A stretch of DNA of 64,000 nucleotides. It comes from Callorhinchus milii. Taxonomy: Eukaryota. The DNA lies in the NCBI RefSeq assembly GCF_018977255.1, contig NW_024704742.1, forward strand, positions 95,296,001 through 95,360,000. The letters are read 5' to 3'. The position numbers and the translations under genes were made by a program. The notes under the pieces were generated by a model, which saw only the letters and a list, made by a program, of their open reading frames with translations, ran no database searches and was not told the DNA's origin. Below, one piece after another: positions 651 through 22,270 of this stretch. How positions within the stretch are numbered: the first letter of the stretch is position 1; each line of letters starts with the position of its first letter.

Positions 651-950
651 AATAATAATCCTTGCATTTGATACAGCACCTTATCATAATAATAATAATA
701 ATAATCCTTGCATTTGATATAGCGCTTTTCACGTCGGGAGGGCGTCCCAAAGCGCTTCACAGAACACACTGTAAAGTGAATTGACTGTATATTTGTGGGC
801 GAACGCGGCAGCCAATTGCGCACAGCAATGTCCCACAAACAGTCGTAGATTGAAAATGACCAATTTATTATTGTTTTTGGTGGGACTATTATTATGTAGT
901 CGAGACATATCAAAGCGCTTCAATGGAAATCCTGTGAAGTGGTGTGACTT
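651..950 (-). mobile_element. Young SINE 3' half (about 685-885) nested in the tail of an older SINE
   Basis: (TAA)n-TCCTTGCATTTGATATAGCGC tail plus GGCAGCCAATTGCGCACAGCA core; older tail at 651-684 resumes near 890. Confidence 0.8.
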
Positions 951-2035: not shown

Positions 2036-3358
2036 ACGCTACACTGGAATGTCTGACTGGACTGTGACCTCAAAATACTGATGTGGGGCTTCAACTCACA
2101 AACTGCTGACTTCCAGGTGAGAGTCCCGCCAACTGAGCCAGGCTGACACCATATTGGGGTACACAGAAATACAATTGCAATTGTTTAGCCTTGCTTGCTA
2201 TATTTGTCAGAAAATAAGTTTCAGCAAAACTACCCCTCCAGTTTTGCTTTCAGTTTAAAATAATAATAGTTGGATACCACGTTATCTTTCACCTTCAATC
2301 CATATATATCATATCATTTTTGTAGTGATTCTCAATCCATAACACTGATGTATTTAGTAATTCCTTTATTCTCAGCTCACAACAATCTAATAGTCCAACC
2401 ATCCATCCACCCACCCACCCCAAATACCTTCCCAGAATCTGTTATACTTCCTGTTCATATCTCCTTAGCTCCTTCTTAATTGCCCTTTATTTCTTAAAGG
2501 GATATCCTACAATGTACATGCCCAATATGACTTACTGATGAAGCAATCTTCAAATAACTTTTTACACAAAATACAGTATGGTGGACTGTGAGTATTATAT
2601 TGAAAGCCAAACAGAGAATATCCTGGGCAGCACACAGCAAAACAAAAGTACACCTCAGCTTCTGTTTGCATCATGTGCTGCTGCCCCCATTGTCACTGGA
2701 AAGGTCATAATTCTGTAAACTGTACACTTTAGGAACAAAACCGGAGGAAAGTGGTAGAAAATAGTATTATACCACATACTGCAAAACACACAAAGATGAA
2801 TACCTTTGAGAGAGTGCTCCTTTTTCACAAAGTATTTCCACTTCCAATACTGGGTTATAATGTTTTAGCAATCTTTGCAAAGCCGGAGTAATTTATTTGA
2901 ATAAATTCAATTGAGTTTTGCAGGGTACACTTTAAGTTGACACCTGTTGTGCTTTGAGTTTAGCATTTGGTAAATGCTTCCAATAGTAGAGGGAAATCTG
3001 TACAATACAATATTATGGCTCAGGCAACTTTATAAACCGCTCAAACTTTGCCCTCTTACCTTGACATCTGAACAGCTATGTGCAACTATGTAATATGATG
3101 TAATCCAATATGTAAGTAATCCATGTTTGCTTTTCTGTTTTAATTACATTAATATTGTGTAACATACAGATGGTTTTAAATGCAGTCAAAGAGCTAGTCC
3201 CACACATAATCATTCGGGCAATGCAGACAGGAAGGGAATAGAAGAGTTGGGCATATGTAAACTTAAGGGAATGCCTTGGAGTTGAACTGGTTTCAAGGTG
3301 ACATGTCTGGCAACGGAATGTCAGAATTGAGCCAAACCTCTGCAGCCAATTTGTGTAC

Positions 3359-3880
3359 AACAACAAAACTACATTTGTATAGAGCCTTTCACGTCGGCAG
3401 GACGTCCCAAGACGCTGGACAGAAAGAGTTATGGACCTGAGCTGAGGGTCAGGGTGAGGGCGGGGTGGGGGGGGGGGGGGGAAGCAGGGAAATCGAAAGC
3501 ACGGTCGAAGACTAGGGTCTTGAAGGCGGCGAGGGAGGAGGCGAGATGGAGGGACTGCGGGATGGAGTTCCAGAGCATGAGTGCAGATAGGGGTGTACCT
3601 CAATATCCCACAAACAGCCGTGAAGTGAATGACGAATTTTATCTGGAGGATTCTTGGTTTGGGCACCAGGGAAAACTCCTTTTACTTTTTGAAAACAAAT
3701 AGTCGGGACCTTAGTTTAATGTCTCATCTGAAGAACGGCACCTCCAACAATGACACCTTCCTCAGGATTGCCCTGGAGTATCAGCCTACACAATGAACCT
3801 AAAGTCACAATTTGAGGCTTGAACCCACAACCTTCAGACTCAGAGACAAGAGGGCTATCAACTGAGCCAGGCTACTACCT
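3359..3880 (-). mobile_element. LINE2 3' end (about 3359-3590) followed by an old Deu-type SINE fragment (about 3600-3880)
   Basis: (CAA)n tail with CCTTTCACGTCGGCAGGACGTCCC; SINE body and head similar to 45130-45560. Confidence 0.7.
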
Positions 3881-5849
3881 TAATCCTTCTATATGAAAAT
3901 ATTAACAATGTCTCTTGTATTTATGCTGTTCTAATGTTAGTATATATTTTTTGTGCCCTGAAACCTTAATATTACAGAACTAGGCATTTTATCAAAAACT
4001 TTACCAAGTCACTTTCAGGTATTAACATTTGCAATCCCAGGCCAAGGATCTAACCTGATCTCTGTCCTGGAATCACATAGGATGCATTGTGGGCAATTGC
4101 TATATATAATACTTAAGGTTATAAGAGACTGCTAACATAACGTTAGTATAGATGCATTTAAGAGGAAGCTAGAACTTCACATGAAGGAGAAGGGAATAGA
4201 AGGTATGGGAGAGAGTAAGGAATGGAGGAAGATTTGTGTGGGTTATAAACATCAGTATGGACTGGTTTGGCCGAGTGGCCTGTTTTTGTGCTGTACATTC
4301 TTCGTGAATAATTTGCATACAAGAAATTGAAGAGGTTAGTCAACTGAGAGATGGCACAATCTTCAATTGAGTGGCATAATCCTTTTCCTAGCACAGTATA
4401 TCTGCTTAATAAAAAGCCCTATAAAAGTACATGTGAGTTTTTTTTAAAAACTATATGATTGTAACCAGTTAACCTCCAGCAGTCGTTACTGGCTGAGGGG
4501 GTGGTGGTGGGGGAGGTTACTGTACTGGTTTTGCACTTATGAGCTTGGGTTCTCCAAAACCCTACACTGGACTGATCCCAAATTTCAAGCTATTGTCCCA
4601 TCTCCAATCTTGCCCTTTCCTCTACAGTGCCTCGATTAGTGCTGTAATAGTAAGGTCTCAGGCTACACAAACATTATACCAATGAGTTGCTGCCTTTCAG
4701 CTTTGTTCCTTTCTCTCCTACCATTCCTTATATGTGTCCCTCTAATCTGAATTCCACGCTGCCCACATTCTTGGTAATTCACAACCGTCATCTCTGTCTG
4801 TGCCTTGGGCTCTCCGTGCCTCCTTGTAAGGATTATTATTTGTCCTTTTGATTTCAGCTGCCTTTGACACCAAGACACCATCTGGCGTGAAGGGCTCTAT
4901 ATAAATGCAAGTTGTTGTTGTTGACCATTCTATCCTTCTCCACCATCTCTCCCTGATTCACTTTCCTGGTTTCATTACCTACTTCACCCAGTGTCCATTT
5001 TATTTTGCCCGATGACTTCTTCTGTACAGTCATATGAGTTTCCCAGGGACTTATCCTTTTCACCATTTACACGCTCTCCCTTAGTGACGTCATCCAAAGG
5101 CATGCGGTCCACTTCAATATATAGGTGGATGACAGTCGACCTTTCTACCTCTACCCTCAACTGTTTTGACAGATTGCAGCATCAAGTCCTGAATGAGACA
5201 TAACTTACTCCAATTTAGTGTCACCAAAACTGCCCTTCTTGGAACTTGCTCCCCGACTCCCTCTGCTTCAACCCCGCTTTCAAATTCTGCTTGAAGACCC
5301 ACTTTAACTTTGCTTTAGATCACTTGCACTGAGCACTGGCCTAATGTTCTGGGCCTGAACCAATGTTCAAGGTCTGAATCAAATTTTAATTGTGACTATT
5401 GGAATGTGTTTAAACTGTATTTCAACTGACTGATCAGAGATGGAAACAACGGGTGAGCATACAGTCATAACACTACGTAAAACTACTAAGATAGTGTTCT
5501 GATGCAAGAATAAGAAATTATTTTCAGGTCCTTTGATAAGTAGTGTTGACCTAAAATGCTTGGTAAAGTTTTGTGGTAGTCTTGTTTTGTGCTTCATTTA
5601 CTTGCTTCTGAGAATCAGTTTGCTTCCATACTTCCTTCACTATAGTTTAACTGGGTTATCAGAGATGCTCGACAAATATACGTTGACAGGTGATAGCATA
5701 ATTTTGTAAAGAATAGGTCATACCTAATCAATTTAATAGAATCTTGGTGTAGAGAAATCATAGAAATTTACAGTGCAGAAGGAAGCTATTCAACCGATTA
5801 AGTCTGCAGCAGCTCTCAAATTGTACTTTCAATCCCTTAAAATTAGGTG

Positions 5850-7380
5850 TAAGCCCTTTTGCACTAAGTTGAGGAAAAACTTCTTCACTCAGAGGATAGT
5901 GAATTTATGAAATTCTGTACCCCAAAGGGCTGTAGATGCTCAGACCTTGAACATATTCAAGACTGAGATTGATAGATTTCTTGTGAATGAAGGGACATGG
6001 GGATAAGGCGGGTAGGTGAAGTTAGAATAGATCAGCTATGATCTTATTGAATGGCGGGGCAGGCTCGAGGGGCCGAATGGCCTACTCTTGCTCCTAATTC
6101 TTATGTTCTTATGTCCAGCCCTATCCCCATACACTTTCAAGCCTCTAACTTTCATATATTTGTCTACTTGCCTCTTGAAACCCACAACGCATTCTTCCTC
6201 TACTGCCTTATTCGGCAGGGTATTCTGCATCCCAACAATTCTATGGGTCGAAAAACCTCTTGAACTCTTCTTTTGCTGTTCTTGTGGCTATATTAAATTT
6301 ATTTCTCCTTGTCACTGACTCCAAACAGTATAAATAATTTCTCCCTATTCACCCTGTCAAAATCCCTCATAATTATATATGCCTCTTATCAGATCCCTCT
6401 CAAACCTTCTCTGCTCAATGAAAATGGATCCAGTCTCTCCTCATAACAATAACCCCTCATCCCTGGGCTCATTTTTGTAAATCTCCTCTGCACCCCTTCC
6501 AATGCCTTACATCCTTCTGGAAGTGAGGTGACCAAAACTGAAGGCAGTGCTCCAGTTGCTGTCTTACCAATGTTTTGGACGAACTTAGCATATTGCTTTA
6601 CTGTTGTACGTTCTGTCCCTACGTATAAAACAAAGAATATCATTAGCGTTTTTCACAGGGTACAAGTCATTGTAAATCACATTCAGTTCTTCATGGGTAT
6701 GGAAGTGATTATAAGATCAGCGCCTTAGGACGTCCTCCCGACGTGAAAGACACTATACAAACGTAATCTTGTTCTTGTTAAGAAGAAAAATTGGAAGCTT
6801 GGCTTTATAACAGGTACAGAACATAAGATCAACGCAGCGCTGTGGCGGTAGTGTAAAATGCTGTGTAAGAATGTTGGTTGGACATAATTTGGAGTATTGT
6901 GTACAGGTTTGGGTGTCCCACCTGAGAAAGGATATGGTTTTTTGGAGGAAGTGGAGCGATGATTCCTGGGATGAAATGACTTAACTTTGATTAGAGACTA
7001 AGTGAACTGGGGTTATATTAGTTGGAGTTTGAGATTGAAGAATTATCTGAGCAAGGTGTTTCCATTAATGAAGCATACACAAAATAAATGAGGAATAACT
7101 CTTCACCCTTGTTAGGGAATCCAGGACAAACAGACATCAATTTAATATTAGACCTAAAGTGAAAAGGTAGTCCAGTAAAAAACATCTCTGCACAAAGATT
7201 TGAAGAATGAGCGTTTCAGAAAACCATTGATCGTGAATTGAGGCATTCAAGCGAGAAAGACGGTTACTTTATAAGTAATAATAATAAATTATATGGCGAA
7301 AAGGGGGGAAAATGGAATTAAAGTTGCCGTTAGATGTAATAGTGGAGAAAATGTAATGGTATATTCCTGTTCCTGTCTTT
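5850..7380. mobile_element. Cluster of CR1 3' fragments (about 5850-6110 +, 6110-6560 -, 6800-7380 + degraded)
   Basis: GGGCCGAATGGCCT..CCT and TTCTTATGTTCTTATG 3' end; ALEGVQRRFTKMSPGMRG on the - strand. Confidence 0.75.
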
Positions 7381-7490
7381 TACATTCATTGCTGGACAAC
7401 AGATTGCAATGTTTTCTCAATCTTTGCACCATTCCAGTAGGGACTGAGAAGTTGTGCAATATTCAATGTTTTTCTCCCTTTTTTGAACAG

Positions 7491-7642
7491 TTCAAGGAAG
7501 ATATCTCGAAACGTTTCAATACACAGCCTGAGCAGCTCGTGCTGATATTTGCTGGAAAAATCCTGAAAGATCAGGACACGCTTGCCCAGCATGGCATACA
7601 TGACGGACTTACAGTTCACCTGGTCATCAAAACTCAAAACAG
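7491..7642 (+). CDS. UBQLN1: Ubiquilin-1 exon 2 (UBL domain); exon 1 lies upstream of the window
   Basis: gaacag|[50 protein letters not shown](R)|gtaaag; 152 bp. Confidence 0.95.
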
Positions 7643-8171
7643 GTAAAGTTTAGTTAAAGCAATAACTAGCAATATTTGGATGTTAAGATAGAAGTATTAG
7701 GCTGAAGTACAGTTAAATAAAAAGTTAAGAATATGAAAACTGCAAATACATTTTTGGGTTGTTTGTAATTGTCATCTGCTGCTTAAATGATGTGTTTTTC
7801 TGCAAATTTTATTTGAACTGGAATCTTTCTGACAAATGGAGTAGTGAAAGACTATGCCCTTATGTAGGCTATTGTCTATGTCATTTAATTGAAGGGTCCC
7901 TCTCAATGTTGCCACTAGTTATAAAATGAGCATTCAGAGACAATAAATATAGATTAAAAACAGAAGCATTTGCTGATAACATGATAATTTTAAGTATTTC
8001 TTCATCTTTGATGCAGGACAGTATGGCAAGCCTAAACAGTTTGATCAGTAAGCTACTTCTGTAGAATTCATTCACTCTTTATTCCTCCTCCCCTATTTTA
8101 GGCCTGCCTTTATTTTATAATATATGCATTTTTTTAAAAAAAGTTAAATCATACTCTTATTTAATTCTCAG

Positions 8172-8293
8172 GGCTCAGGAGCAGCCGGCTCAGCCTGCGA
8201 ACAGTGGTGACACCACCACAACTACAACTACAACCACACCCCCACTCAGCAGCACTGCTTCAACCAATGCCACCAGTAACCCCTTCAACCTCG
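8172..8293 (+). CDS. UBQLN1: Ubiquilin-1 exon 3 (S/T-rich linker)
   Basis: ttctcag|AQEQPAQPANSGDTTTTTTTTTPPLSSTASTNATSNPFNL|gtaag; phases 2/1 fit the neighbouring exons. Confidence 0.9.
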
Positions 8294-8689
8294 GTAAGAT
8301 TCAGCTACACCAGGTATCAACCTACCTTCTATTTGTGGACCGTGATAGCTCATGTGCTCTCAGTCTGTCCTGGCTTAATCTTGTCACAAACTCTGTCCCC
8401 TGATTGTGGATGAGTTCAACTTGACTTGCTCAGCTTGGGCACCTGCAAGGACGATATTAATGCTACAAGATTTGAGTACTTTCTCACAAAGAAGTCACAG
8501 TTCCGGTCTAATTTCGAGACTCTTGTAATTATGGAAACTGAATTAATCATTGGTTTCCCACTGGATTTTTAATTAATAAACTCCACAGATAATCATAGAG
8601 ATGGTAGATTTTACAGTGCGTCTTTGATACAGGAGCTAGAACAAAAAAGATTAACCGTTACAGGTAGAGGTGATGATACTTAGTCTCTT

Positions 8690-10170
8690 TGTTGATCGCT
8701 GCCCTTATCAAACGCTTTTATAATTTTAAACACTTCTATTAGGTCCCACCTTAAATTTCTCCTCTAGCAGAAAAAGGTCTAACTAGTCCAGTCTATCCTG
8801 TTAGCAGTAACCTGCAGTATCATCCTTGTAAACCTACCCTGTACTCTTTCCATTGCTGCTATATTCTTCCTATAGTGTGGAGATCAGAATTGGACACAAT
8901 ACTCCATAAAGATTTTGTATAAATTCAGCATCACCTCCTTACTTCTCAAAGCCAGTCAGGAACCTCGGTGTTCTGTTCGACCCTGAGCTGTCCTTTCTCC
9001 CTCATATCCGCGCCACAACTGGCACCGCCTTCCATCGCCTCCGGAACATCGCCAGACTACGGCATTACCTCACCCCTCACGCTGCTGAAACTCTGGTCCA
9101 TGCCTTTATCACCTCAAGGCTGGACTATGGGAACTTTCTCCTCGCCGGCCTTCCCGGCACCTCCCTCCACACTGCAGGTCATTCAGAACTCTGCAGCTCG
9201 TGTACTGTCCCGCACCAGGACCACATCACTCCCACCCTCGCTCGCCTCCACTGGCTCCCCATCCCCTAGAGGATCGAATTCAAGATCCTCATCCTCACCT
9301 ACAAGGCCATTCACGGCCTTGCTCCCTCCTACCTCTCCGAACTACTATCCCCCTACCTACCTGCCCGTACCCTCCGTTCCTCTGGCTCCGGTCTGCTCCA
9401 CATCCCTCGCCCCAACCGCCCTACCATCGGTGGCCGGGCCTTCAGCCTCTCAGCCCCGAGGCTCTGGAACTCCATCCCCCAGTGCCTTCGCATTGCCTCC
9501 TCCCTTTCCTCCTTCAAGGCCCGTCTCAAGACCTTTCTCTTTGACTGTGCCTTCAGCTCCCCTCTCGACTCTCTATCCCCTTCCCTTCCCTCACCCTGAC
9601 CATTTCCCCCCTGCTCGGGTCCTGACCGAACTATACAGCGCCTTGGGACATCCTCCTGACGTGAAAGGTGCTCTATAAATGGAATCTTGTTGTTCTTACT
9701 TCTATATTCTCTTCTATCCCTCTGGATATAAAGCCCAAAACCCCATTGAATTTTTTAAAAGCTGGGTCTACTGTGTAGCTAGAGATTTGTGGATCTGACT
9801 CCCAGATCTATTAGCTCCTTTACTCTTCTTAGGTTCATACCATCCAGACCAACGGTGGCCAACCTTTTTGGTCGGCCATCAAGATACATTCTCTTTATTG
9901 AATATTTCTTGATTCATGCCATAAATCAAGAAATATTCAATCAAGAAAAAAATGGAACCCAAAATAGGTATTACATTGGCCATTCTCCAGTCCTCTGACA
10001 CGATTCCTTTCTCTGCAGAGTTCTTAAATATAAATACTAGGGCCTCAGCTGTCTCATTACTAGTTTCCCTAAGGATCATTGGGTGTAGTCCACCTATGCC
10101 TAGTGCCTTGTCCTCCTTAAGCTTGTGTAATTTATTTAATACCTCCCTGTTCCCTATCTTAACTGGATCT
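8690..10170 (-). mobile_element. Fragmented CR1, interrupted by a LINE2 insertion
   Basis: CR1-like segments at about 8690-8946, 9695-9850 and 9960-10170 (ILRETSNETAEALVFIFKNS..GIVSEDWRMANVIPI). Confidence 0.7.
8947..9694 (+). mobile_element. Young 5'-truncated LINE2 with a 9-bp target-site duplication
   Basis: Frameshifted ORF2 C-terminus (ETLVHAFITSRLDY, LQVIQNSAARVL); (TTG)n tail; CTTACTTCT at 8938-8946 and 9695-9703. Confidence 0.9.
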
Positions 10171-10422
10171 CAAAGAAAAATGAACTTCTCATTGTTTTTC
10201 AAGGTTATATTCCCTCCTCATCCAAATTCCACAAAGAAAATCTATTGGCTACTCATTTCACCTTTTTGCCACATATTTCTGGTGCAAGTAGGATGCCACG
10301 ATTGCCTCCGTAACATTCACTTCAATTCTAATTAATTTCATCCTGTAGTGTTGTAAGAAGTCCCTTTTACATGAAAGTTGTTGTCATTGGCAGGCTGTTT
10401 CATGAAGTCCATTGTGTTTCAG

Positions 10423-10685
10423 GTGGATTGGGAGGTCTCGCAGGCTTGAGCAGCATGGGTTTGAATTCTGCCAACTTTATGGAGTTACAGACTCAAATGC
10501 AACGGCAGTTGATGTCAAATCCGGAGATGATGTCTCAGATCATGGAGAACCCATTTGTGCAGAACATGCTATCGAATCCAGATCTGATGAGACAACTGAT
10601 TATGGCCAATCCACAGATGCAGCAGCTGATCCAGAGAAACCCAGAGATCAGTCACATGCTTAACAACCCAGATATCATGAGACAA
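10423..10685 (+). CDS. UBQLN1: Ubiquilin-1 exon 4 (STI1 region)
   Basis: tttcag|[23 protein letters not shown]...[16 protein letters not shown]|gtaagt; 263 bp. Confidence 0.96.
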
Positions 10686-11160
10686 GTAAGTTCTTAAAGA
10701 ACAGGGATGTCCATGTAAGATGACTGTTGCATGAAAGCAAATGCTCTTGTGTACCTTGCAGGGAGAAAATGGGATTCTAATGTTGGTCTTGAATTTCTAA
10801 ACTTTGGAACTAGATGTGAGAGTGCTGCCAACTGAGTGAGCCAAGCTAACCGTTTCTTTTCTTGCCCCATGTTTAATGTTGTTTTGTATAAACATTCATT
10901 TCTTAAATGTTTTCCAACTTCCTTCTGTCTTTTGCCACCTTCTCTGGGCTGGCCAGTCCTTTTGTTTGCCGATGTATTTAAGACAAAATCAATAAAATAA
11001 TCTAAATGTTAACTGAATTTATTGATCAAAGTTTAAGTGAGAATGAAGCCCCATTTGTTGCTAATGAGAGCTGAAGATTGAATTACATGTTAGGTTGTAT
11101 TTTCATAAAGTTTGTACTCCACATATAGTCATATGGTTCTCAAGTTTTCAACTTCTTTAG

Positions 11161-11361
<201 letters not shown>

Positions 11362-11380
11362 TAAATCATCTTCTGTTAAA

Positions 11381-11745
11381 ATAATAATAATAATAATCTT
11401 GCATTTGGTATAGCACCTTACCATGTCTTCGAGACATTTCAAAGCGCTTCACAGAATATACTGTAAAGTGAATTGACTGTATTTTGTGGGTGAAACGCAG
11501 CAGCCAATTGCACGCAGCAGTGTCCCACAAACAGTTGTGAATTGAGTGACCAATTTAGCTTTTTTTGAAGGAATTATTACCCCCAGAAAAGCAATCCGCC
11601 CATCAACTACCTACCAGGTTCCTACTTACTGCTGGGTAAACAGGAGTGTGGAGTAAGGAAACTTGCCCAACGTACTGCCCTGCTGGAAGTCGAACACGGG
11701 GTTTCTCGCTTGCGAGGCAAGTGCGCCAACCTAGGAGCTATTAGG
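11381..11745 (-). mobile_element. Near full-length tRNA-derived SINE
   Basis: (TAA)n tail, core, GGAGTAAGGAAACTTGCCC and a tRNA-like head. Confidence 0.85.
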
Positions 11746-12189
11746 TTATTCTACTCAAATGGCCCAAATTCTGTTTTTTATGGTTAAATCATTACACTTC
11801 TTGTGCAATAGGTATTGAGCACTTTGGGGTGTTGTCCTGGAGTGAAAGGCATTATATAAATGTAAATTGTAGGTATGGGCTGCAATTAAATTTAAACCCA
11901 GTCCAATACAACTGCTTCATCTTTGCCAATTGCATTTGAGATTAAAAGAATTACATTTAGATTCAAGATAGATACAGATTTTAAAAGAAATTTGAGAAAC
12001 ACACTTGTTCAAAATCAAAACTTTATGTATAATTCCCAAGGAAGCAGTTCCTTTCAATAAACCAGCTCTCATGTGATTCAATGAAACTTGTTTTCCCTCT
12101 CAAAAATGTACTCATTGTGTGCAAAGACCAGAAATCTTTTATACTTGTAAAAACCTATAATTACTACATAGTTTAAAGAATTTATAATC

Positions 12190-12882
12190 AATAATAATAA
12201 TAATCCTTGCATTTGATATAGCGGTTTTTCATGTCTTCTAGACATCTAAAAGCGCTTCACAGAATAGACTGTAAAGTGAATTGACTGTATATTTGTGGGC
12301 AAAATACGGCAGCCAATTGCGCACAGCAGTGTCCCACAAATAATCAAATCATGTTATCTTTTGCCATTTATTTCCAATGTGTATATTCTAAAATATCTAC
12401 TTATTGTCTGTGGTGTGTTTAGGTTCTTTGTTGATTCCAGTTGCATTTGCTTTATTTCCTCTGACCTTTTTAACATTATTTTATGTTTACTAAATACTTT
12501 AATAACCGCTACTAAACAACAACAACAAAATTACATTTGTAAAGCGCCTTTCATGTCGGGAGGACAACCCGCTAATAAAGGAGGCCAACCAATGGTTTGT
12601 CTTCTCATATGAATTGTGTCTGCCTTGCTTGTTTGATATTCAACACAGAGACTTCAGATGCCAGCAAATAAACTCATCAGATGAATGGAATTATTTCCTC
12701 AGACAAAAAAGGGTTGTTGCACTTGTTACAATCATTTGCATCGATGTTCAACAGTATGTTAGGCACAACCATTTGAAAGTTCATGATCGCCCACAAAACA
12801 TACACTGTACAGTATATTCTGTGAAGCACTTTGAGATGTCTAGAAGACGTGATAAGGTGCTAAGTCAAATGCAAGGATGTTA
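12190..12882. mobile_element. SINE 3' fragments (about 12190-12342 -, 12785-12882 +)
   Basis: Same tail and core motifs as the other SINE copies. Confidence 0.75.
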
Positions 12883-13109
12883 TATATCTCTTTCTTGGGG
12901 GGCTTTGATCTCTCTCCTAATTACTTCAAGAGCTTTGGCAGTCATAGGGTTGAAAATGGAATGAACTCCCTATAACCTGCTTTATGTACCTATGTATTTT
13001 TTTGATAGACTTTCCCCTCTCCAGCATCACACTGGCCCATCTTTGAAAGCCTGGATCGTGAAATTGTCAATAAAATAATTATAGCAATATAATATAATTA
13101 TAGCAATAT

Positions 13110-13325
13110 AGCAAATCTGGAATTCTCTCTCCCAAAAAGCTGTGGATGCTGGATCCATCCTTCAAGAGTGAGGTTGATAGATTTTTGGTAGGTCAGGGTA
13201 TCAAGGAATATGGAGAAAAAGTGGGAAATTGGAATTGACAGAATTAGTGGAGGTACAGATGAGCCATGATCTAATTGAATGGTGGAACAGGTTCAAAGGG
13301 CTGAATGGCCTACTACTCTTCCTAG
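13110..13325 (+). mobile_element. CR1 3' end
   Basis: TGGAATTCTCT..AAAAGCTGTGGATGCT...GGGCTGAATGGCCTACT. Confidence 0.75.
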
Positions 13326-13514
13326 TTAAGCTAAGACTTCTTTACCCATCTTTGATTTGATTTAAGGACGTGTCTACACCTCTAGTCTTATTGATGAGAT
13401 GACAGGTTAATTCATTAATAATTATTAATCTGTTAGTGACAGTGCCTTGGATCACTGTGGACCTTCCTGTTTTTTCAGATGTGCTTCAAAATCCATTCAC
13501 TTTCAGGAAAAAAA

Positions 13515-13586
13515 ACTCAAATCCAAAATCCCCAATTTAGTCAGCAGCACAGTTAACAATTATAACTGACTTATAAAACAAACACT
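13515..13586. repeat. Left arm of a perfect 72-bp inverted repeat (partner at 15243-15314)
   Basis: ACTCAAATCCAAAATCCCC...TATAAAACAAACACT is the exact reverse complement of 15243-15314. Confidence 0.95.
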
Positions 13587-13795
13587 TGTGCCTTGCAGCC
13601 AAATGCTTTCAGCTTGTTAAGAATTTGAATGCAGTAAGTGGATAATTGAGATATGTGATTTAACTGGTGAGCAGCAGCAGACTATGGGTAAAAGAAACTG
13701 TTAGCACACAGTACAAGAATGTACACAACCTATCTCCTTTAGCAAACACGATGGTGAATGGGTATTTCAGAATTGATATTTCCTGTCCTCTGCAG

Positions 13796-14003
13796 TTCGG
13801 CGGCAACCCTTTTGCATCTTTGGTGAGTAATTCTGACGGGGGCAACCAACCATTGCGTACAGAAAATCGAGACCCTTTGCCCAACCCCTGGGCTCCACCA
13901 CCATCCAGTTCACAGTCTTCTACCACCAACACCAGCACCTCCACCAGTGGCAGCGGAACCACAAGTCAGCCTACCATGCCAGGCCTGGGAGCTGGATTGG
14001 GAG
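13796..14003 (+). CDS. UBQLN1: Ubiquilin-1 exon 6
   Basis: ctgcag|[35 protein letters not shown]...GLGAGLG|gtaact; 208 bp. Confidence 0.95.
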
Positions 14004-14378
14004 GTAACTATTGTTTATGGTTTAATGAGTTGTGGAAATCCAGGAAACCCCCTTTTGTTCTAGTTGTGCAATACTAGCAACCCTTCAGTACTTACAATTA
14101 GAAAAGGCAATGTGTTATGCGAAATTAAGAACCTCAGAAGGTCGTATTACAGATTCTTCCTACCAGTATATTGCTGAGGAGTATGATACAATTCAAAAGC
14201 CATGGGAGAATTGTGTTTGTACTAACCAATGTCCTGGTTTTGGGGTTGCAACTATTTCAACCTTTGTATTACACACAGGAGAAGCTGTCTTCAGTAATAT
14301 GCTTCCTGTTGTTTGAATTTTTCATCATATATAAATAATATATATATATATATACACACATATTGGTTTCTCTCTCAG

Positions 14379-14527
14379 CAGGATCTGGAATGTTCAATAC
14401 ACCGGGTATGCAAAGCTTGTTGCAACAGATCACAGAAAACCCACAACTGATGCAGAACATGCTCTCAGCACCTTACATGAGGAGTATGATGCAGTCTCTG
14501 AGCCAGAACCCAGATCTTGCATCACAG
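14379..14527 (+). CDS. UBQLN1: Ubiquilin-1 exon 7 (alternative tandem-acceptor start at 14382)
   Basis: ctctcagcag; [49 protein letters not shown]|gtacag. Confidence 0.94.
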
Positions 14528-14714
14528 GTACAGAATCATTTTTAAATTCAAATTTAAATTCAAGGTCCATGACCCACAATGCAGGATACTTCCAAGCTTG
14601 AAAGGAATAGGAGATAATTCAGGGTTCTGGGCCGATGATGAAAAGCTTGGATTTTAAAAGCCTGTGGATTGTAGGAGGAAGAAAGACTGAGGCAACAAAG
14701 AAATTTCAGTCTTG

Positions 14715-15055
14715 CTTTAGGTCAGTCAGGTGTCTGACATGCAGAAGGAAACCCATCACCACGGTTAAGAGCAGCCAAGCCAAACTACTGAGTCCCACAT
14801 ATATATGTTTTCATTTGTATGGAGTAGAGTGCGCACTCATTGAGTGGCCACTTTTAATTGGTGCAGCCAGGATCACCCTGTCCATTAGAGCTTTGGCTTG
14901 CAAGGTCAACTGCAGCTAAGTGGATAAATTCCTATCTCCAGGACCTGGTCTTCTCCAAATACTGTTGATGTGACACACGGACCGGCCTGGCTCAGGGACT
15001 GGACTACCAAGTCCACCACAGAGTATTGACTCGATTCTGATATTCCATTGTCACA
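14715..15055. mobile_element. Unclassified old interspersed repeat, copy 1 of 4
   Basis: GGTCAG..GGTGTCTGAC..GGAAACCCATCACCA start and GACTACCAAG..CCACAGAG end, shared with copies near 24625, 37460 and 57143. Confidence 0.7.
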
Positions 15056-15242
15056 CACATCACGTTGGGGCCAACTCAGCCCAAATGAGAAACACCATGC
15101 AAAATAAAATCATAATGAGACCTAAGCCAAATGAGATTCTGCTTACAGTTTCAGACTTGAAGTCCTCGGAAAGAGCAACATTAAAATATTTATTTGTAAT
15201 TACAATATTGTAAAGCATGATACTTATGATAATTGATACCTG

Positions 15243-15314
15243 AGTGTTTGTTTTATAAGTCAGTTATAATTGTTAACTGTGCTGCTGACTAAATTGGGGA
15301 TTTTGGATTTGAGT
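15243..15314. repeat. Right arm of the perfect 72-bp inverted repeat
   Basis: Exact reverse complement of 13515-13586. Confidence 0.95.
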
Positions 15315-15477
15315 GCAGTAATCCCATCAAAGGCCTTAAAACCATTCAGCTTGTGCAGAACAAAAGTTTGGATAAGTTATTTTTGGTTGCTGTAGCAAAC
15401 CACCTTTGGAATTTAAAACCAATTTTTGTAATTCTGCATTTCTGCATGATATATTCTACAGTGGAAGCCTTCATATT

Positions 15478-15542
15478 AGAGGGTGATTTGATAGCTTTCT
15501 ATTCATCTATCATGAGCAATGTCATGCCTAGGTAAAATAGAG
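15478..15542. repeat. 65-bp perfect direct repeat, copy 1 (partner at 17044-17108)
   Basis: AGAGGGTGATTTGATAGCTTTCTATTCATCTATCATGAGCAATGTCATGCCTAGGTAAAATAGAG. Confidence 0.95.
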
Positions 15543-16040
15543 GAAGAGTTTTGCATATATGCTGTTTGAAAAGTTATCGAGTAAAATTCCTGATGAGTAT
15601 TTCTGAATCTGCATCCCTCCCCCCACCCCCCGCAGGATTCAAACTTGCTCTCCACAGACAGCATTTCATTCAGAGAGGGTCTTCTGTTAAGAATTGGTTG
15701 CACAGAGAGATGTACAGTTGAGTCAAAGACCAGAACAGCATAACTGGGCAAACACTTGCAAAGTTTTAAAGACTAGGGGAAAGGTGAGGAAATGGGTTTA
15801 AAAGATCTGCTGTGATTTAATAAACTCACAAGACATGCTCGGTTGGTTATATGGCCTATTTCTATTTTTCTAAGGCAACTATCTTAAGGCGAAGACTGTA
15901 AAGACTTTTAAGGCCTTGGTTGACAGATTTCTCCAAATAAGATCGCCCTGCAACAGGAATTTGAGAAACTGAGTTAAATCTGTTGTATTGTTTCACAACC
16001 TATTCTTCCAAACAAACTAATAGAGATCTGTACATTGTAG

Positions 16041-16124
16041 ATCATGCTGAACAATCCACTGTTTGCTGGAAATCCTCAGCTACAAGACCAAATGAGACAA
16101 CAAATCCCTAATTTTCTGCAGCAG
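16041..16124 (+). CDS. UBQLN1: Ubiquilin-1 exon 8 (84 bp, symmetric)
   Basis: ttgtag|[28 protein letters not shown]|gtaaga. Confidence 0.95.
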
Positions 16125-17043
16125 GTAAGAGTTTTTAAAAAAATGTTTCTTCCCTTGCCCCCTACACCTTACAGTAAACCATGTGAAGCTCTTTGAGGCA
16201 TCTTGGGATGTGATGAGGCACTATATCAAATGCTAGGATTATTATTATAAATTACTTGAGTTTCAGTGTTCATTTATTGCTGTCAACCTTATTTGCCCTC
16301 TGGAGCTTTTATATATATGAAAGGACCATTGGTCTTTGTATCCACAAAATAAACTATGTACTTTTCAGGTTTTATCAGGGTCTATGTTTTCTATAGTGAA
16401 GGAAACAATCGAGGGACGGAGGGTTCGGCTGAAATTTAACATTTTTAAAAAAAAATGAAAAATCCCAAAATTTATTTTCGGGTACCCACTTTTTGCAGAC
16501 ATCTCAAAATCCACCTCATTGCTCCAGAACTATTAGTATTGCAGTAAGGTGAGTTTCGAGGTGGGCATATGCTAGCATGGATGCTTAAAAACAGTTGGTG
16601 AATTTATTTTTAAAACTTTGCATGCACTCCCACTTGAGCTTACTTTACAAATGACATTCCCCGTCAAACAACATCATTGTAATAAATCTTTTTATCTGAT
16701 TTGCACTGATAAAATATCAATTTTTCACTTGATTTAAAGTTTTAAAAGGAGGAGCTTTCCAGACCGGCTTGACAGAGGTGGTTAGGTTAGCTTCGGGGAC
16801 TCCCTAAGACAGTGTTTGAGAACCCCTGATGTAGAGAGATCTGCTTCATTCCTGGCTAACTTTCACACAATCTTCCTGGTTCACAGGAAGTGTGAACGTC
16901 ACTTCATGGTAAACCCCTGCTTTTAACTGTTTGTTTGGCTTTTCTCCTCCAATAGAAGTTGTAGTTGGACACTTAAGGGAAAAATAGACCTCTTCTGGGA
17001 GTCTTTTGATGTTTTGAAGTGCACCAGCTGGGGTTTTCATACC

Positions 17044-17108
17044 AGAGGGTGATTTGATAGCTTTCTATTCATCTATCATGAGCAATGTCATGCCTAGGTA
17101 AAATAGAG
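17044..17108. repeat. 65-bp perfect direct repeat, copy 2
   Basis: Identical to 15478-15542. Confidence 0.95.
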
Positions 17109-17669
17109 CCCTTATAAAGTGAGGGGTATTCTCATGACTCTTGCCTTAGGTTCATCTTAGTCCTATATAAAGGATGTTTCATTTATAGACTTCCTTTGTA
17201 AACTATGCGTAAGGGTAATTGTTGCCCTTGCCCTCCTCCCCAAACAAATGCAGTACTAAGGGCTATGGAAAAAAGGTGGGGAAATAAACTGGTGCAACTG
17301 ACTCAAAGGGGTGAATCGTCTCCTCCTTTTCCCATGTACCAATATAACTGGCCTTTGAATGTCCTTTAGCTATATAAATGCCATTTTGTTGTTGGCTTGA
17401 AAAGCATCCAACTAAATCTGGGATGATGTACTCACATTAAACTGTCACCTTTGTAAGGGAGCAGCTGGCTTTTTGTAAAATTTGTACATTTGAAGAATGA
17501 AGAATCCTCAGTACAAACTCCATTGGAAGTGCTAGTCCTAGCTTCATATTTCAGAGTCTGGCTGCAACATGGATGTAAGAACCAGTCATGTATCTGTAGA
17601 AGTATATATAGTAGCAAAATAATAACTGAAATCCAACCTTTTTAAACTAAGTGCCACTTTTCTTTTCAG

Positions 17670-17785
17670 ATGCAGAACCCTGAAACACTGTCTGCTATGT
17701 CAAACCCGAGAGCCATGCAGGCTTTGCTCCAAATTCAGCAAGGTCTGCAGACATTAGCTACAGAGGCCCCTGGGCTTCTACCAGG
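17670..17785 (+). CDS. UBQLN1: Ubiquilin-1 exon 9
   Basis: tttcag|[38 protein letters not shown](G)|gtaagt; 116 bp. Confidence 0.96.
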
Positions 17786-18282
17786 GTAAGTGTGCATTGT
17801 AGTGAAGCGATTCCCAGACAATTTTGCTCTTTGCCTGATTGCCAGAAGCCTGAATCTCTTGGGTTTGCACTAATCCCAAATGCTGCTTGCAAGTTGTAAG
17901 CCATACTGCTGTCATTTACTTTCTGCAAGAACTTTCTGTTTTAGCAAAGGTATTCATTGTAGTCACTCTATGGAGTTCTGTAATATGTCCTACTCCCTCT
18001 TGGAGTAAACATACTACCAGAGGGAGGGATGCATTTACTGAAGGGAGAAAGGTCCACTAAGTCAATTCTCTTAATACATCAAGTAGAGAACTTGTTAATG
18101 GACAGACTAATTCATGACCTTTAATTGTTTCTGAGGGTCAAGCAGTCTAGGCGTTCCGTTTAAAATTGTACTTAACTGCAGGCAGAGTTGTAAATCTCCA
18201 AAACTGTGTGGAAATCTCCAGGGAGGTGTCATATATCAGATGTTTGCTGCCTGGTTTGAGCTGTTTTGTGTTTGTTTTAAAG

Positions 18283-18430
18283 GCAGGTTAACAGTCCTGG
18301 AGAGTTTGGCACCACTGCCTCCAGCACAACTGACAGTACTAGTGCAACAGGTGGTCTGGGTACAACCGAGGCTGGACAGCAGCATTTCGTACAGCAGATG
18401 TTGCAGGCGCTAGCAGGAGCTAATTCACAG
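18283..18430 (+). CDS. UBQLN1: Ubiquilin-1 exon 10
   Basis: ttttaaag|QVNSPGEFGTTASSTTDSTSATGGLGTTEAGQQHFVQQMLQALAGANSQ|gtacac; this acceptor keeps the frame. Confidence 0.88.
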
Positions 18431-19277
18431 GTACACACAGAAACTTCTTGAGTAATTATTCTGGGGAAGGAGCGGGATGTTTGTGGTGCTGGTCTTGAAC
18501 TCAGACACGCTTGTTCAACGTACATTGAACAAATACATTATTTGTAAACTAGAAATCTTACAAGTTCCTTGCAAACTTGCTTGCAATCCCTAATTAATCT
18601 ATTTCTGTAATTTAAAATACTTGTCTGAAACCTGAAAATTTTAGTGTAGATTCTTGTTGTGAGATTTACTATTTATACAAGGTGATGGGAAGACGTATGA
18701 CAGTACAAGACAAGAGTGTAGGTATCCATAGAATTACTCTTGCCAGTAATCCTGGGCAACTGGAGCACAGAAAGGCTGTCATTTCATATATGCCCAAAAT
18801 ATATGGAGAAATTATGTTGGGAGTTGAGACTTAAAACAATGAGATAAAAAGCAAATTAATTTTTTATAATCATTTAAAAAAACAGCCTAATGGCTCAGTT
18901 AATAATTGCATTGTTAGTTATGGTACTAAATCCCAGATGAATCTTGACTGCTCAGTAAGGGCCAGGGTTTTATGTAGCATCAGGATGAAGTTTTCGTTGT
19001 CCATTGGGTTTGTACTTTTCAAAGCCCATGAGCTTTGAATCATGACTAGAGGTTTGAGAAGATTCACATGATTTCAGCCAGCGCATGTCCTGAGAGCAGA
19101 AGAACTAACTTTTGTCTCATTGATTGCCAGGCCATTTGAAGGTATGTAGACAGTGAATCTTTATTTACAGTTGCACAATTCTGGCTGGAAAAGCAGCAGG
19201 CTATTTGTTTTTACCATGATCTCATTATGCTCCAGTAAAGTCTCATTTGGTTCATTATTGAGGGTGATAGCTGGTGA

Positions 19278-19475
<198 letters not shown>

Positions 19476-19836
19476 CAACCTTCCTCCAGCTTGCAAAGAA
19501 ATTGTAATTTATTTTTGATATAACAGCAGTTAAATCTTTAAAAAAATGCTTTTTTCAGCTTGATTTTTGAGATTGGGTCTTGTATTTGGAGAGTGAGATA
19601 ATTGATGCATTACAATAGTGAATGCAGTGAGGCTGTTGTACAGTACTGAGTCCTGGGATTTGGTCGGAGATGTTGCATGCATCAAAATTTTCGTTCTCCG
19701 TTGCGTTTGTGCTTTTCAAAACCCATTTGAGCTTTTCAAGTCATGTGAATAGTTTTTTTTTGGTCTGACCTGAAAATCTGTTTAAATCTCAAGTCTTGCT
19801 GTTTAAGCAGTAGCATCTCGATAGTAATTTGTATAG

Positions 19837-20373
19837 AATAAAAACTATAAAAGCAGAACAAACTGATCAAAGCTGCAGTGACTGATCATCCATTGTGTAT
19901 TGTGAACGAAGCATGCATTTATGGCAAACAAATAGCACCCAAAAAATAAACTAAATGCAGGACACCATTGAATCTAATATTTATTATTTGCTTTATCTGC
20001 AAAATAAAATACACAAATGTACTGCATTCGATATAATTTCACAGAAAAGTATCCCAATACAGTATCTTTCTTGTCTGTTAAGGCAGTTGCAGTGGTTTTG
20101 AGCTTCCTAATTCTGGATAACTTAAAATATTTGTGCAGCTTAAATGAGCACCTTATTCATAAATGTGTGCTTTTGACTACCGCAGACTGACTTTGGCCAG
20201 CTGATTCCTAGCATAAATTGTATGTGCATTATGATTTGTAATTTGAGATGTCTTTTCTTTTAAAGTGTCTCTTGTAATATTAATCTAATAATTTCTCTGA
20301 ACTGCCTTGTACAAAAATATTTAACCCTTCAGTTTTTATCATTAGTATTTACTTATGTGCACAGGTCATTAAA
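19837..20373 (+). terminator. Candidate UBQLN1 polyadenylation signals
   Basis: AATAAA at 19837, 19945 and 20003; ATTAAA at 20368; which is used is unknown. Confidence 0.5.
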
Positions 20374-20889
20374 CTGAATTAGAAATGATGTGTGATTTCT
20401 TTTTTAAAGTCAGAAGTCCCAATGAATAAGGCTGCTACAAAAAGATTGTTCAGATTCCAATGGTTATCTGAGAAAGTATGGAATGCATCAACTATACAAT
20501 TTCCCTTCATTGTGAGGAGGGTAGGGCAGAGGTAGGGAGGCAGAGTTCTGCAAACTAAGCTAGACCACAGAAACCACGGGCTGCTTTTACTGTAAAGTAC
20601 ATGTTGAATTCAGTATGTTAATGGTCTCTGTAGAAATACCATCTCCAATGGTAGCTAGAAAAAATAGTAAATTACTTGTAGCTTTATTTCTGCCGCTTGT
20701 GTGCCTGGATTATTTTCATCACAATAGTACTTTGGATGCGATTTTTTACATGTATTTTGACTCGCCAAGCAAAAACATATCGGGGGGGTGAGAGAGAGAA
20801 AAAGCTACAATCAAAAGAGCAAGCTAGAATTCAAAGACTCCCAAGGGGAAGTAAAAATATACAAGGAAGATGGAAGACTTATTAATACA

Positions 20890-21060
20890 TAATAATCCTT
20901 GAAATTGATATAGTGCCTTATCACGTATTTTGAGACGTCTCAAAGCGCTTCACAGAATATACTGTAAAGTGAATTGACTATATTTTGTGGGTGAAACCCC
21001 GCAGTCAATTGTGCACAGCAGTGTCCCACAAACAGTCATGGATTGAGTGACCAAATTATT
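20890..21060 (-). mobile_element. SINE 3' half
   Basis: Tail and core motifs. Confidence 0.8.
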
Positions 21061-21479: not shown

Positions 21480-22270
21480 ACTAAGAAAAGTGTGCAGTGG
21501 TACATTTTGGTAGAAGGAATAAGTCACATACATCCTGGAAAATAAAAACCTAAATGGGGTAGAGGACCTAGGGGTACACATACACAATTCACTAAAAGTA
21601 CAACGCAAGTTAATAAGGCCATAAAAAAGGGAAACCCAGGCCTTGGGGTTCATTTCTAGAGGGATAGAAATGAAAAGCAGGAAGTTATGGTAAACCTCTA
21701 TAAAACTTTGGTTAGACCACACTTAGAATACTGTGTGCAGATCTGGTCCCCACATTATAGAAGGGATGTAGAGGCACTGGAGACGGTGCAAAGGAGATTC
21801 AGAGAGATGATCCCAGAACTGAGAGGTTATACCCATCAGGAAAGGCTGAACATACTTGGACTCTTTTGAAAAGAGGGTAAGGGGTGACCTGATAGAGATC
21901 TTTAAAATTATGAAAGGTTTTGATAGGGTAGACATAGAGAAGATGTTTCTACTTGTGGGGGAGACCAAAACCAGGAGTCATCAATATAAAATAGTCACGA
22001 ATAGCTCAAATTGGGAAGTTAGAAGAAATTTCTTCACACAGAGAGCAGTGGGAATGTGGAATGTGCTATCACAAGGCGTTGTTGAGGCAAATAGTATAGA
22101 TGTATTTAAGGGAAAGCTAGAGAGTTACATGAGGGAGAAAGGGATAAAAGGTTATGCTTGAAGGCTTAGTTGAGGAAGGGCAGGAGGAGGCTCATGTGGA
22201 GCATAAACACCGGCATAGACCAGTTGGGCCGAATGGCCTCTTTCTGTGGTGTATATTCTAATGTATGTAT
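21480..22270 (+). mobile_element. CR1 LINE 3' fragment
   Basis: LYKTLVRPHLEYCVQIWSPHYRRDVEALETVQRRF and RGDLIEIFKIMKGFD, frameshifted; CR1-type 3' UTR. Confidence 0.9.

What the first reader, a model, noticed from the sequence alone, without database searches (positions are those of the whole stretch)
13515..15314. Perfect 72-bp inverted repeat brackets UBQLN1 exons 6-7, an in-frame module: circRNA or exon-skipping candidate
Seen: 13515-13586 (intron 5) is the exact reverse complement of 15243-15314 (intron 7) and resembles none of the SINE/LINE families here. The enclosed exons total 208+149=357 nt (354 with the alternative acceptor) and are phase 0 at both ends. Established: complementary flanking-intron sequences promote back-splicing and exon skipping, and can be ADAR substrates. 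Inference: pairing could give an in-frame exon 5-8 mRNA lacking 119 aa. It could also give an exon 6-7 circle with AUGs and no in-frame stop, i.e. an endless rolling-circle ORF. Perfect identity means either a recent origin or selection.
Basis: partly seen in the sequence, partly recalled or inferred. Interest (0 to 1): 0.75.

Follow-up and report, generated by a model that had tools for sequence, protein, structure and literature searches.

The report
Young inverted micro-duplication around ubiquilin exons
A 72-base piece of one intron of a ubiquilin-1-like gene is present a second time, flipped and letter-perfect, two introns further on; it looks like a recent copying accident that could make the two exons in between form a circular RNA, which has not been shown.

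Summary
13515-13586 and 15243-15314 are 72/72 complementary, and they are the only two copies found in the 991-Mb genome. They bracket exons 6 (208 nt) and 7 (149 nt) of a UBQLN1-like gene, a 357-nt phase-0 module with no stop codon around the circle. Contigs from a public DNA-like run break exactly 30 nt inside both arms, with about double depth on the arm. So the repeat is in reads and is not an assembly artefact.

A related species' contig is collinear across the locus and carries the intron-5 arm with 3 substitutions, so that copy is old. Zero differences between the arms therefore points to a recent inverted copy in intron 7. A second perfect 65-nt duplicate (15478-15542 = 17044-17108, direct) starts 163 nt after the right arm. 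That suggests template-switch repair.

The arms should form a 72-bp RNA stem (-120 kcal/mol), well above the 30-40 nt shown sufficient for back-splicing elsewhere. No back-splice or skipping evidence could be obtained: only contigs were available and repeats swamped the output. My verdict is a real, young, probably neutral structural mutation. It is a credible but untested circRNA or exon-skipping candidate. Interest is modest.

The parts
13515..13586 (+). Left arm, in intron 5, 209 nt upstream of the exon 6 acceptor. Probably the ancestral (template) copy.
   Evidence: It is present with 3 substitutions and a 1-nt gap in the collinear contig of a related species (X13 record 12). Its inner junction lies in X1 contig 13557-14324.
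15243..15314 (-). Right arm, in intron 7, 715 nt downstream of the exon 7 donor. An exact reverse complement of the left arm and probably the derived copy.
   Evidence: Its inner junction lies in X1 contig 14368-15272. It is not inside the interspersed repeat of intron 7, which spans about 14861-15100. Derived status is inferred, not seen.
11161..11319 (+). Exon 5 (159 nt, phase 0 at both ends), the upstream partner in a possible exon 5-8 skip.
   Evidence: RNA-like contig X8 record 20 joins 11316 to 13793, the canonical 5-6 junction.
13796..14003 (+). Exon 6 (208 nt), which encodes a low-complexity Ser/Thr/Pro-rich linker.
   Evidence: No Pfam hit for this piece.
14379..14527 (+). Exon 7 (149 nt; alternative tandem acceptor at 14382), which encodes the start of an STI1-like / ubiquilin repeat region.
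   Evidence: Weak Pfam hits below the curated cut-offs: STI1-HOP_DP 24.1 bits and UBQLN1 17.3 bits.
16041..16124 (+). Exon 8 (84 nt, phase 0 at both ends), the downstream partner of a possible skip. It is itself flanked by the second, direct duplicate.
15478..15542 (+). Copy 1 of a second perfect 65-nt local duplicate, in intron 7, 163 nt after the right arm.
   Evidence: Only 2 genome matches. X1 contig 15513-16239 starts 30 nt inside it.
17044..17108 (+). Copy 2 of the 65-nt direct duplicate, in intron 8.
   Evidence: X1 contig 17079-17300 starts 30 nt inside it.

Best explanation
This is a real, evolutionarily young local micro-duplication. A 72-bp stretch of intron 5 of a UBQLN1-like gene was copied in inverted orientation into intron 7, 1.66 kb away. 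A 65-bp stretch shared in direct orientation between intron 7 and intron 8 lies 163 bp further on and probably arose in the same repair episode. The most likely mechanism is polymerase template switching during replication or break repair (MMBIR-like templated insertion). As a by-product, the pre-mRNA can now form a perfect 72-bp stem that loops out exons 6-7. That is the arrangement known to favour back-splicing and, less often, exon skipping. I expect low-level exon 6-7 circles or skipped mRNA as a side effect, not a selected function. Shown: the repeat, its uniqueness in the genome, its support in reads, the exon geometry and the old age of the intron-5 copy. Inferred: the direction of copying, a single event, the mechanism and every RNA consequence.
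For: The repeat is perfect and limited to two copies. A second perfect unique pair has one copy in the same intron 163 nt away, and the 163 nt between them is unique in the genome. Both pairs produce k-1 (30-nt) contig breaks in run X1, and the arm has about twice the flank depth (19.3 against 7.1-9.4), so they exist in reads. The relative's contig (X13 record 12) is collinear in all 5 listed pieces from 13484 to 16603. It carries the left arm with changes at 13534, 13544 and 13566, and overall intron divergence is about 11% (31 of 281 letters). If both arms predated that split and evolved independently, the chance of 0 differences is 0.056 (at the arm's own 4% rate) to 0.0007 (at 10%) for 72 nt. 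For the 137 nt of both pairs it is 0.004 to 1e-6. Perfect local inverted pairs of 40 nt or more are rare: 0 in 20 control stretches of 10 kb from the same genome. The predicted RNA duplex is -120.3 kcal/mol. The minimum-energy fold of 13400-15450 pairs 72 of 72 arm bases with their mirror bases and is 84.7 kcal/mol better than with the arm held open. Inverted repeats of 30-40 nt were sufficient for circularization in minigenes, and non-annotated complementary sequences are expected to work (PMC4201285: abstract and sections 14-15 read). Inverted templated insertions close to their template are the described MMBIR signature (PMC8421209: passages read).
Against: Whether the relative lacks the right arm could not be read, because the tables were cut. 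The relative does have 506 nt where the window has 919 (15060-15978), which fits an insertion here but does not place it. Microhomology at the junctions cannot be assessed without the pre-insertion allele. The template lies 1.66 kb away, much further than the 100 bp within which the MMB-TI tool of PMC8421209 looks. The left arm is somewhat better conserved than its flanks (3 of 72 against 28 of 209 differences, Fisher p=0.03), which could hint at constraint. One contig of an RNA-like run (X5 record 15) joins the arm to the 'wrong' flank, which a simple static duplication does not predict unless it is a mis-join. There is no RNA evidence for or against any splicing effect.
Confidence: 0.6

Rival explanations
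1. The inverted repeat is a selected cis-element. It is kept perfect because it drives a useful exon 6-7 circRNA (possibly translated from its endless frame) or a regulated in-frame isoform lacking 119 residues.
For: The stem is perfect and is the strongest of 17 inverted pairs across the gene. The module is in frame and the circle has AUG codons and no stop. The left arm differs less from the relative than its flanks do (p=0.03). Human UBQLN1 appears in lists of circRNA host genes (passages of PMC5663837 and PMC7031184; the exons are not given).
Against: No back-splice or skipping junction was seen in what one search printed. A second perfect duplicate lies next door in direct orientation, and direct repeats cannot pair in RNA; that argues for a mutational process rather than selection for pairing. 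Perfect identity is what a young neutral copy gives. PMC4201285 (sections 14-15) stresses that the mere presence of a repeat pair does not guarantee circles.
Confidence: 0.1
2. Both arms are old, predating the split from the related species, and are kept identical by gene conversion between them.
For: The left arm is old. The mean depth of the relative's run over 15220-15430 (59) is close to the depth of its collinear contig (62.1), so something of the relative lies there.
Against: 72 nt is a short substrate for conversion (my own knowledge, not tested). That depth can equally come from the flanks plus the left-arm piece laid twice. The relative has 413 fewer letters in 15060-15978. A second perfect pair would need the same explanation.
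Confidence: 0.1
3. The arms mediate, or are the footprint of, a polymorphic inversion of the exon 6-7 segment, with some chromosomes carrying it flipped.
For: X5 record 15 (1147 nt, depth 12.6) runs 14506-15243 on the + strand and then 13585-13177 on the - strand. That is exactly the junction a flipped segment would give. Staggered-break inversions are known to leave inverted duplications at their ends (recalled, not looked up).
Against: The same path arises when a 31-mer graph collapses a 72-nt repeat and the other two flanks are uncovered. X5 has depth 0 at 13642-13654 and a mean of 2.56 over 15220-15430. The reference orientation matches the relative's contig and the mRNA contig. X1 shows both reference inner junctions.
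Confidence: 0.07
4. It is an assembly or polishing artefact: one arm does not exist in the animal.
For: Perfect identity and sharp edges are what a mis-assembly could also give. X1 might come from the same individual as the assembly (warning).
Against: X1 contigs contain both inner junctions with 0 other letters, break 30 nt inside the arms as a true repeat does in a 31-mer graph, and show doubled depth on the arm. An RNA-like run of another study (X5) also has a contig running from intron 7 into the arm.
Confidence: 0.03
5. The arms are terminal inverted repeats of a DNA transposon or MITE.
For: Inverted termini of tens of bases around a 1.8-kb unit look superficially like a foldback or MITE element.
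Against: Only 2 genome matches, both the arms. The outer flanks show no target-site duplication (GGAAAAAAA before 13515, GCAGTAATC after 15314). The interior consists of host exons collinear with the relative, and the left arm alone sits in aligned orthologous sequence.
Confidence: 0.02

Closest known systems
Exon circularization driven by intronic complementary sequences (mouse Sry; Alu pairs at human ZKSCAN1, HIPK3, EPHB4; Liang and Wilusz 2014, PMC4201285)
   Same: Reverse-complementary sequences lie in the two introns that flank exons with canonical splice sites. At 72 nt the stem exceeds the 30-40 nt found sufficient. The arms are not an annotated repeat, a case that paper expects to work (section 15).
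   Different: No circle has been observed here. The arms are a unique two-copy duplicate rather than transposon copies. They are perfect, whereas Alu pairs are diverged. The organism is a cartilaginous-fish-type genome (per earlier unchecked notes), where I found no circRNA catalogue ('Callorhinchus' plus 'circRNA': 4 papers in the listing, none on the subject by title).
Templated insertions from template switching (MMBIR-type MMB-TI, PMC8421209; short-range template switches, PMC7954356, seen in the search listing only)
   Same: A short insertion is identical to a nearby sequence, in inverted orientation, and is clustered with a second templated piece.
   Different: At 72 and 65 nt these are long for the class, and the templates are 1.5-1.7 kb away rather than within about 100 bp. 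Junction microhomology and the pre-insertion allele were not seen.
Foldback / MITE-type transposon inverted termini
   Same: Two short inverted arms around a unit under 2 kb.
   Different: It is not multi-copy, has no target-site duplication, and its interior is conserved host exons.
Human UBQLN1 as a circRNA host gene and its exon-8-skipped transcript
   Same: It is the same gene family with the same 11-exon layout. UBQLN1 is listed among human circRNA host genes (PMC5663837 and PMC7031184, passages).
   Different: Those lists give no exons. The exon-8-skipped human variant is recalled, not looked up successfully (one search found nothing relevant). Nothing links either to an inverted repeat like this one.

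Membership tests
Locus with circRNA-promoting intronic complementary sequences | Reverse-complementary stretches of about 30-40 nt or more in the introns on either side of the exons | tested here: met
   72 of 72 nt complementary, one arm in intron 5 and one in intron 7. Duplex -120.3 kcal/mol. All 72 bases pair in the minimum-energy fold.
Locus with circRNA-promoting intronic complementary sequences | Canonical acceptor before the first enclosed exon and donor after the last | tested here: met
   The acceptor reads ctgcag before the first base of exon 6 (13796). The donor reads GTACAG after the last base of exon 7 (14527).
Locus with circRNA-promoting intronic complementary sequences | No stronger competing pairing of an arm within its own intron | tested here: met
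   Neither arm has another partner among the 17 inverted pairs in 3000-21000. The other strong pairs (85%) lie wholly inside intron 5.
Locus with circRNA-promoting intronic complementary sequences | Back-splice junction (14527->13796) present in RNA | tested here: inconclusive
   Only contigs were available and no run is on record as RNA. 15 of 9366 joints were printed, all at interspersed repeats.
Locus with circRNA-promoting intronic complementary sequences | Circle production depends on the pairing (arm deletion or mutation) | not testable with these tools
   This needs a minigene experiment.
Templated insertion by template switching (MMBIR / TMEJ type) | Inserted stretch identical to a nearby template, direct or inverted | tested here: met
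   72/72 inverted at 1.66 kb and 65/65 direct at 1.5 kb. No other exact match of 14 nt or more between 15050-15750 and nearby sequence.
Templated insertion by template switching (MMBIR / TMEJ type) | Insertion absent at the orthologous site of an outgroup (polarity) | tested here: inconclusive
   The relative has the left arm and 413 fewer letters in 15060-15978, but the listing does not show the right-arm site.
Templated insertion by template switching (MMBIR / TMEJ type) | Microhomology at the switch points | not testable with these tools
   It would be hidden inside the ends of the 72-mer, so the pre-insertion sequence is needed.
DNA transposon / MITE with terminal inverted repeats | Multi-copy family in the genome | tested here: not met
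   2 matches in 991 Mb, both the arms.
DNA transposon / MITE with terminal inverted repeats | Target-site duplication outside the arms | tested here: not met
   The outer flanks are unlike each other.
Ubiquilin-1 (UBQLN1) gene | N-terminal UBL, central STI1-like repeats, C-terminal UBA, best match to ubiquilin-1 | tested here: met
   UBA best matches 2jy5 ubiquilin-1, 85.4 bits. UBL best ubiquilin match is 2klc ubiquilin-1, 91.3 bits. Exon pieces hit Pfam UBQLN1 and STI1-HOP_DP at or just below the cut-offs. The margin over ubiquilin-2 and -4 is small, and orthology by synteny was not tested.

The most novel reading that the evidence does not exclude
A newborn, letter-perfect 72-bp intronic stem has created a lineage-specific UBQLN1 product. 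One form would be an exon 6-7 circle with an endless 119-codon frame, which could yield a repeating linker/STI1 polypeptide by rolling translation. The other would be a flip-flop inversion allele that removes the same in-frame module; the one contig with the flipped junction would be its first trace. Comparison with a sister species that lacks the arm would then be a natural before-and-after experiment on how a single template-switch mutation gives birth to a circRNA.
Probability: 0.08. Interest if true: 0.6.

Novelty: new member of a known kind. Interest (0 to 1): 0.3.

Why it matters
If the right arm is indeed a recent insertion, the locus is a clean natural test of a textbook model. One small, datable mutation creates a perfect cross-exon stem in a conserved housekeeping gene. 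Sister species without it would serve as the control for its effect on back-splicing, exon skipping and RNA editing. The locus also documents unusually long (65-72 nt) and distant (1.5-1.7 kb) clustered templated duplications in a vertebrate germ line. Otherwise it is an ordinary neutral intronic mutation with no demonstrated consequence.

Tried and rejected
RNA evidence: the look-up of sequencing runs listed no RNA holder. The four runs laid (X1, X5, X8, X13) are all contigs. The joint table printed 15 of 9366 rows and the piece table 32 of about 263,000, dominated by interspersed repeats at 11400-12900. So neither back-splice, skipping nor editing could be judged. X8 shows only the canonical exon 5-6 join.

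Rfam on 11000-18000: 1 match (Ysr49, E=0.19, 24.5 bits against a cut-off of 95), which is chance. So the arms are not a known small RNA.

Transposon reading: rejected.

Extension of similarity beyond the arms, in either orientation: none. A word-7 BLAST of the flanks gave only matches of 17 nt or less.

Further templated pieces in 15050-15750: none of 14 nt or more apart from the two duplicates, a C-rich run and a 14-nt palindrome.

Earlier notes near the locus, by sequence and in relatives: nothing.

The background rate therefore rests on 200 kb only.

Literature: 'UBQLN1' plus 'exon 8' plus 'splice variant' gave 1 irrelevant paper.

Full report
**1. The observation**

The sequence at 13515-13586 is the exact reverse complement of 15243-15314 (read). 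The repeat finder reports 72 nt, 100% complementary, 1656 nt between the arms. It is the best of 6 inverted pairs in 11000-17000 and of 17 pairs in 3000-21000; the next best are 90% or less. A 71-nt pattern allowing 3 mismatches matched only these 2 places in the window, and none of 100 dinucleotide-preserving shuffles gave any match.

In the window's own genome (991.5 Mb, 1762 contigs) the 72-mer matched 2 places, both being the arms. The tool warns that its counts are lower bounds. So the repeat is not part of an interspersed family. Similarity stops sharply at both ends of both arms in either orientation.

**2. The gene and the exons**

Stop-to-stop frames on the + strand show a ubiquilin gene with about 11 coding pieces between roughly 7.4 and 19.5 kb.

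- Its UBA end matches PDB ubiquilin-1 best (85.4 bits, against 80.7 for ubiquilin-4 and 80.5 for ubiquilin-2).
- Among ubiquilins, its UBL piece also matches ubiquilin-1 best (91.3 bits).
- The margin is small, and orthology by synteny was not tested.

The exon coordinates are:

- Exon 5: 11161-11319.
- Exon 6: 13796-14003, 208 nt.
- Exon 7: 14379-14527, 149 nt, with a CAGCAG tandem acceptor that allows 14382.
- Exon 8: 16041-16124, 84 nt.

Exons 6+7 total 357 nt (354 with the alternative acceptor). Frame 0 has no stop when read three times round the circle and contains Met codons. The exon 5-exon 8 join is in frame. Exon 6 encodes a low-complexity linker. Exon 7 encodes the beginning of an STI1-like / ubiquilin repeat, with Pfam hits below the curated cut-offs.

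**3. Is it in the animal or only in the assembly?**

Four coded public runs were laid on 11000-17300 (after). All are assembled contigs. X1 has 963 million letters of contigs, about genome size, so it is DNA-like.

- One X1 contig covers 13557-14324 and another covers 14368-15272, both with 0 other letters.
- They begin and end exactly 30 nt inside the arms. That is what a graph of 31-letter words does at the edge of a true repeat.
- Each contig contains an inner junction.
- Depth on the arm (19.3 at 13544) is about twice that of the flanking contigs (7.1-9.41).
- The outer junctions are not among the pieces printed.

X1 might be the assembly's own individual (warning), but it is read data, so I reject an assembly artefact. 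X5, from another study, also has a contig that runs from intron 7 into the arm.

**4. Age**

X13 belongs to a different organism label.

- Its 3849-nt contig (record 12, depth 62.1) lies on the window in five listed pieces: 13484-13764, 13763-14035, 14370-14628, 14884-15059 and 15979-16603. All are on one strand and in order, so the locus is collinear and exons 6-7 are not inverted relative to it.
- Further unlisted pieces of the same depth reach back to about 13300.
- Intron divergence is about 11% (31 other letters in 281).
- The left arm is inside the aligned block. It carries three substitutions (13534, 13544, 13566) and a 1-nt gap at 13515. The intron-5 copy therefore predates the split of the two organisms.

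If the intron-7 copy were equally old and free to drift, I would expect 3 to 7 differences between the arms. The probability of none is 0.056 to 0.0007. The simplest reading is that the intron-7 copy is recent.

Between 15059 and 15979 the relative's contig has 506 letters where the window has 919. That fits extra sequence in this genome but does not locate it. Whether the right arm is absent in the relative could not be read from the truncated tables.

The left arm differs from the relative less than its flanks do (3/72 against 28/209, Fisher p=0.03). This is a weak hint of constraint that I do not lean on.

**5. A second duplicate next door**

A self-comparison of the window and an exact-match scan found a second duplicate. 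15478-15542 in intron 7 is identical to 17044-17108 in intron 8 (65 nt, direct orientation). A further 6 shared letters lie two mismatches upstream.

- This pair is also unique in the genome (2 matches).
- It also gives 30-nt contig breaks in X1 (contigs 15513-16239 and 17079-17300).
- It flanks exon 8.
- Its intron-7 copy starts 163 nt after the right arm, and those 163 nt are unique in the genome.
- The interspersed repeat of intron 7 lies at about 14861-15100 and does not reach the arm.

In 20 control stretches of 10 kb from two other parts of the genome there were 0 perfect local inverted pairs of 40 nt or more. There were 3 direct pairs, 2 of them near-tandem.

Two perfect, unique, sharp-edged copies of 65-72 nt, one inverted and one direct, within 300 nt of each other point to one repair episode with template switches. 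Inverted templated insertions near their template are the described MMBIR signature (PMC8421209, passages). Here the templates are much further away (1.5-1.7 kb), and microhomology cannot be judged without the ancestral allele. A direct repeat cannot pair in RNA, so its presence argues that the process was mutational and not selection for an RNA stem.

**6. What it would do**

- As RNA the arms form a 72-bp perfect duplex (-120.3 kcal/mol).
- In the minimum-energy fold of 13400-15450, all 72 left-arm bases pair with their mirror bases.
- Forbidding that pairing costs 84.7 kcal/mol.
- Neither arm has a competing partner.
- The arms lie 209 nt before the exon 6 acceptor and 715 nt after the exon 7 donor.

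Liang and Wilusz showed that 30-40-nt inverted repeats with the splice sites suffice for circularization, and that non-annotated complementary sequence should work. They also showed that pairing strength alone does not decide the outcome, that slow flanking introns and exon features matter, and that ADAR may oppose it (PMC4201285: abstract and sections 14 and 15 read). The locus thus has the anatomy of a circRNA-producing unit, but anatomy is all that is shown.

The only transcript evidence is a 2580-nt RNA-like contig (X8 record 20) with the canonical exon 5-6 join. Human UBQLN1 appears in lists of circRNA host genes (PMC5663837 and PMC7031184, passages) without exon details.

**7. An unexplained contig**

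X5 record 15 (1147 nt, depth 12.6) runs 14506-15243 on the + strand and then 13585-13177 on the - strand. That joins the inner flank of the right arm, through the arm, to the outer flank of the left arm, which is the junction expected if the exon 6-7 segment were flipped.

X5 behaves like RNA: exons have depth 169-390 and introns about 10. It has no depth at 13642-13654 and a mean of 2.56 over 15220-15430. The two reference continuations are therefore simply uncovered. A word graph would then thread the collapsed repeat into the only remaining path. I judge a mis-join most likely. A real inversion allele or a strand-switch product is not excluded (about 7%).

**8. Verdict**

The finding is real and correctly described. 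It is most likely a young, neutral templated micro-duplication, with copying from intron 5 into intron 7 inferred but not seen. It happens to create a strong circRNA / exon-skipping substrate in a conserved gene. It is a new member of known kinds, both as an intronic complementary pair and as a templated insertion. Nothing yet shows an RNA consequence. Earlier notes of this scan call the genome chimaera / elephant-shark-like (unchecked here). I found no circRNA study for that group (listing only).

Noticed in passing
window 15478-15542 and 17044-17108: A second perfect local duplicate (65 nt, direct; 73 nt at 97% if 6 more letters and 2 mismatches are included). It is unique in the genome and flanks the 84-nt exon 8. 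One copy lies 163 nt after the right arm of the inverted repeat.
   Followed up: yes
window 13177-13585 and 14506-15243 (run X5, record 15): One contig of an RNA-like public run joins intron 7 through the arm to the reverse complement of intron 5. This is the junction of a flipped exon 6-7 segment and is most likely a mis-join through the collapsed repeat.
   Followed up: partly
window 14376-14381: CAGCAG tandem acceptor at exon 7, allowing a 3-nt (one residue) alternative.
   Followed up: partly
window 14325-14367: AT/AC microsatellite in intron 6, just before exon 7. Contigs of the public runs appear cut there.
   Followed up: no
window 40223-40318 and 40434-40529; 39740-39785: A 96-nt direct repeat at 98% with 211-nt spacing (66 nt perfect) and a 46-nt near-perfect palindrome.
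   Followed up: no
window 690-881, 33667-33838, 40317-40459, 29721-29766: Copies of a young interspersed element at 96-98% identity to each other. The same tail motif (ATAATAAT...) occurs at 12191-12223 and 16221-16248, on either side of exons 6-8.
   Followed up: no
window 1-460: A long imperfect tandem array whose translation repeats 'HTHSQREA' (CA-rich units) at the start of the window.
   Followed up: no
window 21660-22158 and 8910-9600: Open frames resembling the C-terminal part of a LINE reverse transcriptase / CR1-like 3' region downstream of and inside the gene. The naming is from recall and was not tested.
   Followed up: no
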